DNA of 63,552 bases, the filler included, from Collodictyon triciliatum (Eukaryota): assembly GCA_043381765.1 (NCBI GenBank). It is 3 parts of 3 records of this genome, joined end to end, with 100 filler letters (N's around TTAATTAATTAA, not from the genome) between each part and the next. Parts side by side here need not be neighbours in the genome. Positions count along the whole stretch, not along the records: positions 10,710 to 35,683 come from JBHJMP010000057.1; 2 more parts are not named here. One strand, 5' to 3'. Shown piece by piece: positions 17,848-20,933 of the stretch (the first letter of the stretch is position 1; the number at the start of each line of letters is the position of its first letter). The position numbers and the translations under genes were made by a program. Under the pieces are notes generated by a model. It searched no databases and was not told where the DNA came from. It saw nothing but the letters and a program-made list of their open reading frames with translations.

Positions 17848-19269
17848 ATGGAGGAACTTACTTCGTACCAGCCTAATTGGATACCTGAAGATGAGCCCAT
17901 CGAAAGCTGTACTAGCCTGGAATTGAACAAGCGTTGGCTCTCAGCCTTTCCAGAGGCCTTCCTTTTGCTTCACAACTTGGGCTACTTGAGCATCTCACAA
18001 AACCAAATCAGCCTCATCCCTCCATGGATATCCAAGCTGAGAAGGCTTGCTGGCCTGCAGATGGATGGAAACGAAGTCGCTGTGCTCCCTTATGAGCTGT
18101 TTCTACTAAGTAGCTTGGTTGGCCTTGGTATTCACGAAAACAAAATATCGGCCATCCCACACTATATTTCGAGGCTACGCAACCTCCAATATCTTAATGC
18201 CTGGGAAAATGAGATATCGCACATCCCAAGGGAGATATCCCACTTGAAAGACTTGATTGGATTAGGTGTCAACCAAAACAAAATCACTTCTCTTCCAGAT
18301 GAGATCTCATGTCTTTCCAACTTGGAAGGACTTAATGTCCAAGGAAATAAAATATCCCGTCTGCCAGAAGGCATGTCACGTTTGACTAAACTAACAATAC
18401 TTTATGCTGGAGAGAATGAATTGGAATTCCTACCAGATGGAATATCGTGCCTGAAAAACGTGTCCCATCTAATTCTGGGAAAGAACAAGTTATCAGGAAT
18501 ACCCGAAAGTATATCTTGCTTAGAAAAATTACTTGTAATGGATTTTGGTGACAATCAATTATCATCACTGCCGAACAGTATATCACGTTTAACTCGTTTG
18601 ACTAAATTATTCATTCAAGGCAATATGCTTAGTTCGCTACCTGATCCGATAGCTCGGTTATCCTTTCTGGAGCACTTATCCGCAAGCAACATTCAAATGA
18701 CATCCCTTACCAACCAGATATCATGTCTCAAAAGGCTGGTTGGTCTGGAAATTTTTGCAAATAAGCTGTCCAGTCTTCCTGCAGAATGCTCAATTCTTAG
18801 CAATCTGGATACACTCAACATATTCCAGAATGAATTCACCTTATTGCCAGATGTAATATCATGTCTGCATAGGCTAGAATTTCTCAATATCCGGCATAAC
18901 ATGATATCTCACATACCCAGTTGGATTTCACGGCTCACAAACCTTTCCTTCCTGGGAGTTAGAAACAATCCTGTGAGTCCTATTCATAATTTGTTTGTTA
19001 TAAATGAAATTATCATGTCTAGGAAAATTATTAAGACGTTCTATTTCTCCTCTCGTAGATTGAAGGAATACCAATCGAAATTACTTGTCTCGACAAACTG
19101 AAAGAATTCATAATTGAAGATGCTGATGGATGTTCTACTATCAAGTATGCGCCTAAGAATATCTCTCTTCTACCTTGCTGGGAAAACACAGCATTTCCCC
19201 AGTCTGGTTGGAAGCGAAGTTATTCTGAATCCCTGAAGAGACTCATTCTGTACGAAAAGGTTGACTTCA

Positions 19270-19348
<79 letters not shown>

Positions 19349-20933
19349 ATTCAATATTCGTATGCGCGGTTGATTGAAAATATAATTTAGAGTTTTGATC
19401 TAGTGAATTTTTAATGCACTTTTACTTTCCCTTAGCACAACAGTAACAACAATAACAATAAATATAAAAATAATAATACTAATACTAATATCAATAATAA
19501 CAGACGTATCCTGTCGAAACAAATATCCTCACTAGTGAAGAAGAATCCCACACAGTTATATATTCGGGTTCGAATTTTTCTCTCAAAAGAATGAATACAG
19601 AGCTTTTGCTGTTTGAATTTTGAAATCGTTTAGTGCCCCATGACTTCATATTACTTGCAATAAGTTATAATTGGTGATGTAATATAATATAATATAATAT
19701 AATATAATATAATATAATATAATATAATATAATATAATATAATATAATATAATATAATATAATATAATATAATATAATATAATATAATATAATATAATTA
19801 ATTATGTTCAATCTTCTTTCTTTCTGGTGCGCCCTGCTTCTGTATGAAAAGCCAATGAGGAGTATGCATCCAACAAAGATTTGAAGGTCTTTTTATCGGA
19901 AACCTTTGACGACAGTAACGTTCTGGGCCGAGGTGTCTTGGGGACCACACTTAAGAGGAGTATTATGGTGCAAAAAGATATTACTATTAAGATTCTTAAG
20001 AAAGATGGCCTGGACAGGGCAGAAGATTTACAAAATATCATAGACGAAGTGCTCATGTTGAGCAGCCTTTCTCATCCAAATATATGCGGCGTTCTTGCAT
20101 TTGTGCACACACCCGAAAATGATTATTTCATAATGGAGTATGCAAACGAGGGAAGCTTATGGGATGTTATCAAGACGTCCGGCGCTGTTTTCTATCCAAA
20201 AGCGATTTCTATTTCTAGGCAGATATGCTCTGGACTTGCTTTTCTTCATACACATACACCCCCAATACCACATGGATGCTTGAAACCAGAGAATATTGTA
20301 TTTTCACATGGAGTCGTTCGATTGTGTGACTTTGGTTTGCTCACACCCAGAAGTTTGATCTATAGAAAAACCAACCAAATAGTCGTGTTTCCCTACGCTC
20401 CACCAGAGTTTGGCAACTTTAGCGAGATAAACATTCAAGGCGACCTATATTCCGTTGGGTTGGTCCTTTGGACCATGATTCACGGGGCGAGGCCATACGA
20501 CGGACTATCTGCCCAAGAAATTCCAGTCAACAAGATCAAATGGCCTTGTCCACTATTCACCGAGCAATGTCCAGTCTCACTCGTTCGTTTCGTCAACAAA
20601 TGCTGCAGCCTCGTACCAGCACAACGCCCACAAGCTACTGAAAGCATAGCCGAGCTATGGGAAATAGAAAGCAACCCTGGACACTTGACTCTACAATTTG
20701 GCCGATGCAAGAAGCGCGTGGGGGACATGACGAGCGAGGAGCTTGTGGACTACCTGCAAGCAAACAAAGTAGCAGCGAGATTTTTGGACCTTGTTCGAGA
20801 AAACCTGGTCACTGGTGGGGAATTCCTTAGTCTCACGCCTGGCGATTTAAGAGAGAGCCCGTTCCTCCTGCCGCACTTTTATGTCCAAATCATCCTTGGC
20901 GTCATTCGGAGGGCTTCAGAAAGCCACAGCTGA
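17848..20933 (+). CDS. LRR-pseudokinase-SAM protein, paralogue A (about 823 aa)
   Basis: Exons 17848-18972, 19059-19259, 19504-19567 and 19852-20933. About 15 23-aa LRRs (LxxLxLxxNxIxxIPxxI). TKL-like kinase fold with ITIKIL, HGCLKPEN, DFG and YAPPE. C-terminal SAM-like MTSEELVDYL..VRENLVTGGEFLSLTPGDL. Confidence 0.88.
19273..19346. repeat. (TG)n intronic microsatellite
   Basis: Visible directly. Confidence 0.95.
19681..19797. repeat. (AATAT)n intronic microsatellite
   Basis: Visible directly. Confidence 0.95.

What the first reader, a model, noticed from the sequence alone, without database searches (positions are those of the whole stretch)
17848..20933. Cytosolic LRR-pseudokinase-SAM receptor-like protein
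Seen: about 15 LRRs start near the N-terminus with no signal peptide or TM segment, followed by a linker, a kinase fold and a SAM-like C-terminus. The catalytic loop is HGCLKPEN (20271-20294), so the catalytic Asp of HRD is replaced by Cys, while the beta3 Lys and DFG remain. There is no ROC-COR, so it is not a ROCO protein. Known: pseudokinases act as switches or decoys in immunity (MLKL, ZED1/RKS1) and SAM domains oligomerise. Inference: a sensor-switch-polymerisation module, possibly an undescribed protist innate immune receptor family.
Basis: partly seen in the sequence, partly recalled or inferred. Interest (0 to 1): 0.75.

Follow-up and report, generated by a model that had tools for sequence, protein, structure and literature searches.

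The report
Cytosolic LRR–pseudokinase–SAM gene pair
This is a real multi-exon eukaryotic gene for a cytosolic protein with a leucine-rich-repeat horseshoe, a kinase domain that has lost its catalytic aspartate and a SAM-fold tail; it has a second copy nearby, and it is an unusual variant of the already known LRR-kinases rather than a shown immune receptor.

Summary
Gene A (17848-20933, +) encodes 16 in-register 23-residue LRRs plus a cap. A short unresolved linker follows, then a TKL-type kinase domain with HGCLKPEN at 20271-20294 and a roughly 65-residue tail.

- **Kinase state:** the catalytic Asp is Cys. The G-loop, beta3 Lys, alphaC Glu, Asn and DFG are kept.
- **Tail:** no Pfam SAM model matches it, but it is predicted to fold as a five-helix SAM domain.
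- **Topology:** there is no signal peptide, membrane segment or ROC-COR.

A paralogue (gene B, 51026-48093, -) has the same exon plan and an even more degenerate kinase (HGR, beta3 K>R).

The only relatives found were two Diphylleia rotans transcript clusters and two unnamed contigs. They share the LRR / LPCW-cap / kinase / SAM-like layout but keep the catalytic Asp (HRD or HGD). The window copies are therefore derived pseudokinases of a small, unnamed, otherwise active family.

Single-transcript status rests on homologous transcripts and conserved exon structure, not on RNA from this organism.

Cytosolic LRR kinases without Roc/COR, pseudokinases and SAM-bearing TKLs are each already described. 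I rate this a new variant of a known kind. The immune-receptor and polymerisation readings are untested. Interest 0.35.

The parts
17848..18972 (+). Gene A exon 1: start codon, short acidic N-terminus, LRR1-15 and the first half of LRR16
   Evidence: ORF and ATG. Pfam LRR_14 3.7e-40, LRR_8 5.2e-32. 23-residue register. Two 151-nt contigs of RNA-library run X3 match 18420-18570 (2 differences) and 18768-18918 (0 differences).
18973..19058 (+). Gene A intron 1 (86 nt, GTGAGT...AG, phase 0), inside LRR16
   Evidence: Sequence. Gene B has an intron at the same position after RNNP.
19059..19259 (+). Gene A exon 2: rest of LRR16, degenerate LRR17/cap, family motif LPCWEN...LKRLILYEK
   Evidence: 49% identical to gene B exon 2. 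It matches P0101 residues 27-89 and aligns to LPCWEN/LPCWND...LYD of Diphylleia P0101/P0115. Donor GTTGAC at 19260.
19260..19851 (+). Unresolved linker interval: (TG)n, (ATAAT)n 19680-19798, and a candidate 70-nt linker exon at 19436-19505 (Asn-rich, phase 0 to 1)
   Evidence: Enumeration of AG...GT open segments with the right phase gave 5 candidates; only 19436-19505 has a strong pyrimidine-tract acceptor. With it the model is in frame, 825 aa. There is no RNA evidence; this is inference.
19852..20933 (+). Gene A last exon: kinase domain (about 19911-20660), DPG-like hinge, SAM-fold tail (about 20733-20921), stop TGA
   Evidence: Pkinase 1.3e-38. A family profile is closest to the TKL kinases CTR1, TAK1, MLK1, ZAK and Roco4. 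AF2 models. Foldseek SAM hits.
20271..20294 (+). Catalytic loop HGCLKPEN: HRD Arg>Gly, catalytic Asp>Cys (TGC at 20277-20279)
21013..21018 (+). AATAAA, 80 nt after the stop (possible polyadenylation signal)
   Evidence: Function inferred only.
49905..51026 (-). Gene B (paralogue) exon 1: LRR array
   Evidence: tblastn with gene A exon 1: 41% identity over 375 residues, E 6e-81. Register.
49562..49762 (-). Gene B exon 2: last LRR, cap, LPCWT...LHRLTLYDN
49276..49354 (-). Gene B predicted linker exon 3 (79 nt, acidic)
   Evidence: AG/GT bounded. The four-exon model is in frame and gives 827 aa with only the terminal stop. Inference; no RNA evidence.
48093..49174 (-). Gene B last exon: degenerate kinase plus SAM-like tail. 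Catalytic loop HGRLTPEN at 48755-48732, beta3 K>R, alphaC E>Q, G-loop GDSSLG.
   Evidence: Pfam PK_Tyr_Ser-Thr 2.5e-38. 35% identical to the gene A kinase and tail. Motifs. AATAAA at 48063.

Best explanation
Gene A is one multi-exon gene for a soluble cytosolic protein of about 800-825 residues. It has a SHOC2/LRRD1-type LRR horseshoe, a short low-complexity linker, a TKL-group (MLK/TAK1/RAF/ROCO-like) kinase domain without its catalytic base, and a C-terminal SAM-fold domain. It and its paralogue gene B are derived, catalytically impaired members of a small family whose other known members keep an intact catalytic loop.

Most likely mode of action (inferred):
- The LRR surface binds a protein partner.
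- The pseudokinase domain, which in gene A still has every nucleotide-binding residue, acts as a nucleotide-dependent conformational or allosteric module. It may pair with an active kinase, possibly an active family member, in the way KSR pairs with RAF.
- The SAM domain tethers the protein to itself or to other SAM proteins.

The protein would then be a signalling scaffold or switch rather than an enzyme.
For: Shown:
- Intact ORFs with canonical splice sites.
- 16 in-register LRRs, most similar to LRRD1, Leptospira LIC LRR proteins, SHOC2, LRRC8 and RSU1.
- Kinase Pfam 1.3e-38. A family profile ranks CTR1, TAK1, MLK1, ZAK and Roco4 directly behind a tandem-domain EGFR chain.
- HGC replaces HRD, with G-loop, K48, alphaC Glu, N149 and DFG kept.
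- SAM fold.
- Gene B has the same exon plan and intron position, with a catalytic loop HGR and additional loss of beta3 Lys, alphaC Glu and the loop Lys.
- Four of the 150 best hits among 1.84 billion representatives align through the tail (P0101, P0104, P0115, P0218). They have HRD, HRD, HRD and HGD.
- P0115 and P0247 are assembled transcripts with LRR, LPCW cap, kinase and tail in one ORF.
- Genes A and B are sisters (98/96) on branches of 2.8 and 2.77, against 0.09-1.28 for the four relatives.

From the literature (passages read):
- KSR is a SAM-bearing pseudokinase scaffold (PMC12566612).
- Plasmodium pTKL is a SAM-bearing TKL pseudokinase that binds ATP but lacks catalytic activity (PMC6544628).
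Against: - No RNA evidence from this organism for the exon joins. The linker exon of gene A is a guess.
- Loss of the catalytic Asp predicts inactivity but does not prove it. Some kinases lacking canonical residues keep activity (recalled, not tested).
- No partner, ligand or oligomer is shown.
- Pfam does not recognise the tail as SAM.
- The sister grouping of the two long branches could be long-branch attraction. One of my four chosen outgroup kinases (P0234) fell into the unresolved family polytomy.
- The structure models rest on only 6 aligned sequences. The kinase N-lobe is low-confidence.
Confidence: 0.55

Rival explanations
1. A cytosolic innate-immune or pattern receptor. The LRRs sense a foreign or danger ligand, the pseudokinase switches, and SAM domains polymerise into a signalling assembly, as SARM1-like or MLKL/ZED1-like systems do.
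For: - The architecture is compatible: sensor-type LRRs, a dead kinase and a SAM fold whose closest structural matches include polymer-forming SAMs such as Scm, Ph/PHC3, L3MBTL3, Shank and SARM1.
- Two diverged copies lie on fast branches.
- In Dictyostelium, the LRR kinase LrrkA (no Roc/COR) acts in the killing of ingested bacteria (PMC7003747).
- A TPR_12-repeat gene lies between the copies.
Against: - No family expansion is visible. There are two copies, 27 kb apart, separated by unrelated genes.
- Concave-face LRR positions are no more variable than other non-framework positions (24/80 against 41/144 identical).
- There is no death-fold, TIR or NACHT domain.
- Relatives look like ordinary active kinases.
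- The genome is not held, so no census was possible.
Confidence: 0.12
2. Still an enzyme. The domain keeps weak or unconventional phosphotransfer or ATPase activity, with another residue or the Cys substituting for the base. HER3 and CASK-type 'pseudokinases' were later found to be active (recalled).
For: Gene A keeps GxGxxG, beta3 Lys, alphaC Glu, the loop Lys and Asn, DFG and APE. Only the Arg and Asp of HRD are changed. One relative (P0218) has HGD, so the Gly is tolerated in a form that still has the Asp.
Against: - The catalytic Asp is the residue most tightly linked to phosphotransfer (established kinase knowledge, recalled).
- Sister gene B has also lost the beta3 Lys, alphaC Glu and loop Lys. 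This suggests that catalysis is not what selection maintains in this pair.
- Both lie on long branches.
Confidence: 0.15
3. Gene-model artefact or decaying gene. The LRR exons and the kinase exon belong to separate genes, or the locus is a pseudogene.
For: - There is no spliced RNA evidence. The laid RNA-library contigs cover only parts of exon 1 and show no joints.
- The 592-nt interval holds microsatellites and no confirmed exon.
- An assembly gap lies 260 nt upstream of the ATG.
Against: - The same order and intron positions occur in gene B.
- Diphylleia transcripts have the same LRR, LPCW, kinase and tail order.
- There is no start codon or promoter-like separation before the kinase ORF. 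The last-exon acceptor has phase 1 in both copies.
- 375 + 67 + 361 codons are open, and 39 columns are invariant in all 7 aligned family sequences, gene A included.
Confidence: 0.08

Closest known systems
Cytosolic LRR kinases without Roc/COR (Dictyostelium LrrkA/LrrkB class; PMC7003747, passages read)
   Same: N-terminal LRRs plus a TKL-type kinase in a soluble protein with no signal peptide, membrane segment or Roc/COR. The same paper lists a Dictyostelium LRR-HEAT kinase that lacks the catalytic Asp.
   Different: LrrkA is an active kinase of 1,288 residues with 7 LRRs, and no SAM is reported in the passages read. Here there are 16-17 LRRs, a family-specific LPCW...LYD cap, a C-terminal SAM fold and a dead catalytic loop. 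Direct homology to LrrkA was not tested.
ROCO / LRRK family (Roco4, LRRK1/2)
   Same: SHOC2-like LRRs N-terminal to a TKL kinase. The Roco4 kinase is among the best PDB matches of the family profile (5.5e-44).
   Different: No Roc GTPase or COR domain, and no room for them. Not a member.
ZAK/MLTK (MAP3K20) and other MLK/TAK1-like MAP3Ks
   Same: The kinase domain is close in profile search (ZAK 7.5e-45, TAK1 2.6e-46, MLK1 2.4e-45). ZAK carries a SAM C-terminal to the kinase (recalled).
   Different: Those are active enzymes without LRRs. Here the catalytic Asp is missing and an LRR array is added.
KSR (with SHOC2 and CNK/HYP) scaffolds of RAS-MAPK signalling
   Same: KSR combines a SAM-type domain with a RAF-like TKL pseudokinase that works by scaffolding and heterodimerisation (PMC12566612). 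SHOC2 is among the closest solved LRR domains (about 1e-55). CNK and HYP SAMs are among the structural matches of the tail.
   Different: The domain order and composition differ: SAM is N-terminal in KSR, and SHOC2 is a separate protein. No orthology is shown; this is an analogy of mechanism only.
Plasmodium pTKL (PMC6544628, abstract and passages)
   Same: A TKL-group pseudokinase with a SAM domain. It binds ATP, lacks catalysis and acts as a scaffold.
   Different: pTKL has MORN motifs and its SAM lies N-terminal to the kinase; no LRRs are listed among its domains. It is an exported parasite protein.
Plant LRR-RLKs / pseudokinase decoys (ZED1, RKS1) and MLKL
   Different: There is no signal peptide or membrane segment. 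The LRRs are of the 23-residue cytosolic type, closest to LRRD1 and SHOC2 rather than plant RLK ectodomains. There is no four-helix-bundle executioner domain.

Membership tests
ROCO (LRRK) proteins | Roc GTPase domain followed by COR | tested here: not met
   No Roc or COR Pfam hit in any exon. Only 592 nt lie between exon 2 and the kinase exon.
ROCO (LRRK) proteins | LRRs N-terminal to a TKL kinase | tested here: met
Cytosolic LRR kinases without Roc/COR (loose class) | LRRs and a protein kinase domain in one soluble polypeptide | tested here: inconclusive
   Supported by the paralogue's identical exon plan and by Diphylleia transcripts. No RNA from this organism spans the joins.
Pseudokinase (operational definition) | At least one of beta3 Lys, HRD Asp or DFG Asp missing | tested here: met
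   HRD Asp>Cys in gene A. Asp>Arg and Lys>Arg in gene B. Lack of activity itself was not tested.
TKL kinase group | Kinase domain closest to MLK/TAK1/RAF/LRRK/RIPK kinases | tested here: met
   Ranking of the family profile against PDB. No formal kinome phylogeny was made.
SAM domain | Five-helix SAM fold | tested here: met
   AF2 pLDDT 82.7, helices 21-30, 35-43, 48-52, 56-60 and 68-83. Foldseek top matches are all SAM domains. The helices are reproduced in the kinase-plus-tail model. This is a prediction, not an experiment.
SAM domain | Match to Pfam SAM_1/SAM_2 sequence models | tested here: not met
   0 of 6 family tails match any Pfam family at E<=10. The profile against PDB gives only weak SAM hits (best 0.0075).
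SAM domain | Head-to-tail polymerisation | not testable with these tools
   Needs SEC-MALS, EM or crystallography of the tail.
Receptor-like kinases (plant LRR-RLK, animal TLR-type) | Signal peptide, extracellular LRRs and a transmembrane helix | tested here: not met
   Acidic N-terminus. The maximum 19-residue hydropathy (1.88) falls inside the LRR core. Only simple hydropathy was used, not a dedicated predictor.
NLR/STAND immune receptors | NACHT or NB-ARC NTPase next to the LRRs | tested here: not met
   No such Pfam hit.
Unnamed LRR / LPCW-cap / TKL / SAM family (defined here) | 23-residue LRR array ending in LPCW...L.LY(D/E), kinase, (D/N)PG hinge, and tail M..(E/Q)L...L....G......L...P(F/Y).L | tested here: met
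   Genes A and B, P0115 and P0247/P0101 share all parts. P0104 and P0218 are fragments with the kinase and tail.

The most novel reading that the evidence does not exclude
Genes A and B are the visible part of a lineage-specific family of cytosolic LRR-pseudokinase-SAM receptors. In this reading, ligand binding to the LRR horseshoe releases the nucleotide-bound dead kinase, and the SAM tails then polymerise, homotypically or between A and B, into a signalling filament. That would be a new type of innate sensor, built from an ancestral active LRR-TKL-SAM kinase by loss of catalysis.
Probability: 0.1. Interest if true: 0.75.

Novelty: new variant of a known kind. Interest (0 to 1): 0.35.

Why it matters
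The gene shows a clean natural example of an active kinase family (HRD in its relatives) giving rise to a pair of long-lived pseudokinase paralogues. One of them keeps every nucleotide-binding residue and loses only the catalytic base. In one polypeptide it also combines three modules that animal RAS-MAPK signalling uses as separate scaffolds: a SHOC2-like LRR, a RAF/MLK-like dead kinase and a SAM. If the protein proves to be a scaffold or sensor, it would be a compact model for how pseudokinase switches are wired to LRR sensing and SAM assembly outside animals and plants. As it stands it is an annotation-level finding. The family is rare in public data: 4 clusters among the 150 best hits of 1.84 billion representatives. 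None of the four literature searches returned a description of it.

Tried and rejected
- **Own genome:** not held, so no family census was possible.
- **Word-indexed protein search, 'longer', with the kinase exon:** 92 hits, all generic kinases at 34% identity or less.
- **Same search with family alignment A3, 'longer':** only P0115 stands out (3e-156, 96% coverage) among the 120 listed.
- **A3 'near' at E<=1e-60:** returned nothing, even though known members P0101 and P0104 lie in that length range. The word prefilter was crowded by ordinary kinases, so this says nothing about the family's size.
- **Metagenome scan with A3:** 412 confirmed kinase stretches, 80 kept. tblastn with the 6 tails against all 80 gave only chance-level hits (best E 0.1). 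L004, L012 and L071 are ordinary kinases.
- **ESM Atlas on the tail:** no usable hit.
- **RNA evidence:**
  - Three metatranscriptome runs held small shares of the stretch.
  - X1 gave nothing. X2 and X3 gave about 33-nt low-complexity matches at 19440-19501 with loose ends.
  - X3 also gave two 151-nt contigs on exon 1.
  - There were no joints, so there is no splice information. An RNA library can also hold DNA.
- **SAM self-association:** three copies of the tail gave no verdict, which is no evidence either way.
- **LRR surface variability between genes A and B:** framework 89/143 identical, concave x positions 24/80, other positions 41/144. No signal, and little power with two sequences.
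- **Earlier findings of this scan:** nothing.
- **Taxon:** not resolved.
  - The dynein stalk fragment scores slightly better against the human DNAH6 chain in 8j07 than against Chlamydomonas chains (94 against 78 bits).
  - The GC-rich ORF's nearest Atlas cluster is mostly rotifer.
  - The best relatives of the family are from the protist Diphylleia.
  - These hints conflict, so I name no organism.
- **Supplementary files of the cited papers** were not seen. Domain tables in them (for example Figure S2 of PMC7003747) might list SAM-bearing LRR kinases.
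Full report
**What is in the sequence**

The window is AT-rich eukaryotic DNA (GC 0.22-0.52 in 2-kb bins). It has nine runs of N and long microsatellites. On the + strand an ATG at 17848, preceded by an in-frame TGA, opens a 375-codon exon that ends at a GTGAGT donor (18973). After an 86-nt intron, a 67-codon exon (19059-19259) ends at GTTGAC. A 361-codon ORF (19848-20933) carries the kinase and ends at TGA, with AATAAA 80 nt downstream. The opposite strand holds no ORF above 112 codons that overlaps 16500-22500 and is free of the assembly gap.

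**LRR part**

Pfam scores exon 1 as LRR_14 (3.7e-40) and LRR_8 (5.2e-32). Laid out in a 23-residue register from residue 21, sixteen repeats follow one another without a gap. The consensus is L-x-x-L-x-(I/V)-x-x-N-x-(I/L)-S-x-(I/L)-P-x-x-I-S-x-L-x-x. The 16th repeat is split by intron 1, and a degenerate 17th unit leads into the motif LPCWEN...LKRLILYEK.

The closest solved LRR domains are LRRD1 (4e-97), Leptospira LIC LRR proteins, SHOC2 (about 1e-55), LRRC8 and RSU1. By recalled knowledge the eukaryotic ones among these are cytosolic LRRs. The first plant receptor ectodomain comes later, at 8.5e-45.

The N-terminus is acidic. The only hydrophobic maximum (Kyte-Doolittle 1.88 over 19 residues) lies within LRR3-4. 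I therefore see no signal peptide or membrane segment, although no dedicated predictor was available.

**Kinase part**

The last exon scores Pkinase 1.3e-38 and PK_Tyr_Ser-Thr 4.5e-32. In the alignment to MARK4, IPHGCLKPEN pairs with IVHRDLKAEN. The codons for HGCLKPEN are exactly 20271-20294. TGC differs from an Asp codon at two positions, so a single base error does not explain it.

All other catalytic-core motifs of gene A are intact:
- G-loop GRGVLG
- beta3 ITIK
- alphaC Glu
- loop Lys and Asn
- DFG
- APPE

A profile of the family is closest to TKL-group kinases, listed directly behind a tandem-domain EGFR chain: CTR1 4.8e-49, TAK1 2.6e-46, MLK1 2.4e-45, ZAK 7.5e-45, Roco4 5.5e-44, then RIPK4 and RIPK1.

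**Tail**

Pfam finds nothing in the last 86 residues of gene A or in the tails of five relatives, even at E<=10. A profile of the six tails hits 27 PDB sequences at E<=10. Nine are SAM domains (LOC64762 0.0075, BAR 0.025, SLP-76, SMS1, SARM1, L3MBTL3 twice, ANKS3, liprin-beta). Twelve are redundant cholera-toxin/LT B chains and six are unrelated.

AlphaFold2 on the six-sequence alignment gives pLDDT 82.7 and five helices with a long last helix. Every Foldseek match shown is a SAM domain or a SAM-containing chain (BAR, Scm, Sfmbt, L3MBTL3, PHC3, CNK2/HYP, Shank, DGK-delta, SARM1). For the isolated domains rmsd is 1.3-2.1 A, and TM to the target reaches 0.87. The same five helices appear in the kinase-plus-tail model.

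I accept 'SAM fold' as a confident prediction. 'SAM family by sequence' is not shown.

**A second copy and the family**

tblastn of the gene A exons against the window finds one more locus, on the minus strand. It is 41% identical over the LRR exon, 49% over exon 2 and 35% over kinase plus tail. Both copies place the first intron after RNNP inside the same LRR. Both end exon 2 right after the L.LY(D/E)x motif, and both have a phase-1 intron before the last exon.

A four-exon model of gene B (51026-49905, 49762-49562, 49354-49276, 49174-48093) is in frame and gives 827 residues. For gene A the corresponding small linker exon is not identifiable by similarity. The best candidate is 19436-19505, which is Asn-rich. 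A direct join to 19860 would also be in frame.

Gene B's kinase is more degenerate. It reads G-loop GDSSLG, beta3 TIRIL, alphaC Gln and loop HGRLTPEN, with DFG kept.

**Relatives elsewhere**

An exhaustive phmmer of the last exon against 1.84 billion representatives lists 150 best hits. Only four align in one stretch through the tail:
- P0101 (568 aa) and P0115 (655 aa) are Diphylleia rotans transcriptome ORFs from EukProt. A 742-aa isoform of P0101, P0247, also exists.
- P0104 is from a Logan contig.
- P0218 is from an unnamed NCBI contig.

P0115 has LRRs...LPCWND...ITLYDD, a low-complexity linker, a kinase with HRD, and the tail. P0247 and P0101 carry an SH3 domain in the linker. P0218 reads HGD.

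None is more than 34% identical to gene A, and no near-identical protein exists in that library. The source genome therefore seems unannotated there.

In a ten-row ML tree, genes A and B are sisters (98/96). Their terminal branches are 2.8 and 2.77, against 0.09-1.28 for the four relatives. The rest of the family is unresolved, and one intended outgroup (P0234) fell into the polytomy. The simplest reading is one loss of the catalytic Asp before the A/B duplication, followed by fast divergence. Long-branch attraction cannot be excluded.

**Expression**

No run of the source organism was found. A freshwater metatranscriptome (X3) holds two 151-nt contigs matching exon 1 at 149/151 and 151/151. 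This is a weak hint that the organism, or a very close relative, lives in fresh water and that the exon may be transcribed. The tool warns that DNA can be present in such libraries. No splice junction was covered.

**Interpretation**

- *Shown:* the architecture, the motif state, the paralogue, and membership of a small family with otherwise intact catalytic loops.
- *Inferred:* that genes A and B are non-catalytic.
  - In gene A, preserved nucleotide-binding residues with a missing base suggest a nucleotide-binding switch or an allosteric partner of an active kinase.
  - The SHOC2-type LRRs would bind a protein partner, and the SAM fold would mediate assembly.
- *Precedents:* KSR (PMC12566612) and Plasmodium pTKL (PMC6544628) are SAM-bearing TKL pseudokinase scaffolds.
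- *Immune-receptor reading:* it stays possible but has no positive support here (two non-adjacent copies; no census).

**Novelty**

Cytosolic LRR kinases without Roc/COR are documented from ciliates to amoebae and plants. They include a Dictyostelium one without the catalytic Asp (PMC7003747). LRR-TKLs and SAM-TKLs are listed in protist kinomes, for example Phytophthora with 16 LRR and 2 SAM kinases and 32 predicted inactive kinases (PMC3019232).

Searches for the combined architecture returned no description of it. One used 'leucine-rich repeat' + 'sterile alpha motif' + TKL + kinome + protist and returned 11 papers. The other used pseudokinase + 'SAM domain' + 'leucine-rich repeat' + 'domain architecture' and returned 3 papers. 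I read only listings and the passages cited, and supplements were closed.

I therefore call it a new variant of a known kind, of moderate interest.

Noticed in passing
window 13851-14696 (+), within the GC-rich block about 12000-16000: A 281-codon open frame lies in a block of GC 0.46-0.52, set in DNA of GC 0.26-0.36. It has no Pfam hit. Its nearest ESM Atlas clusters are a mostly rotifer 'hypothetical protein' cluster (0.97) and bacterial clusters (Myxococcota, Bacteroidota; some with IFT52_GIFT/ThuA/DUF4350). It may be a horizontally acquired gene or a foreign insert.
   Followed up: partly
window 28901-30679 (-): Several exons encode TPR_12 / NPHP3-like TPR repeats (5.4e-11, 9.5e-11, 2.6e-06), interrupted by a 753-nt assembly gap. 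The gene lies between the two LRR-pseudokinase paralogues. No NTPase domain was found in the upstream ORFs tested.
   Followed up: partly
window 990-1433 (-), 44670-45203 (-): An axonemal dynein heavy-chain stalk exon (Pfam MT 3.9e-16; best PDB match DNAH6) and a radial-spoke-head exon (4e-09). The organism therefore builds motile cilia or flagella.
   Followed up: partly
window 22357-22713 (+), 12616-13248 (+), 55687-56163 (+): Exons of a RING-variant (RINGv) E3 ligase-like gene (1.3e-15), a Nab2-type CCCH zinc-finger/RS-rich protein (1.2e-05) and a WD40 protein (5.7e-09).
   Followed up: no
whole window: Nine runs of N (44-753 nt) are often flanked by long microsatellites such as (AAACAAAC)n, (ATAAT)n, (TG)n, (TAA)n and homopolymers. 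The assembly breaks at simple repeats, one of them 260 nt upstream of the gene A start codon.
   Followed up: no
P0101/P0247 (Diphylleia rotans transcripts): One branch of the family has an SH3 domain (SH3_1 4.8e-05) inserted between the LRR cap and the kinase. The linker is therefore a site of domain gain.
   Followed up: no
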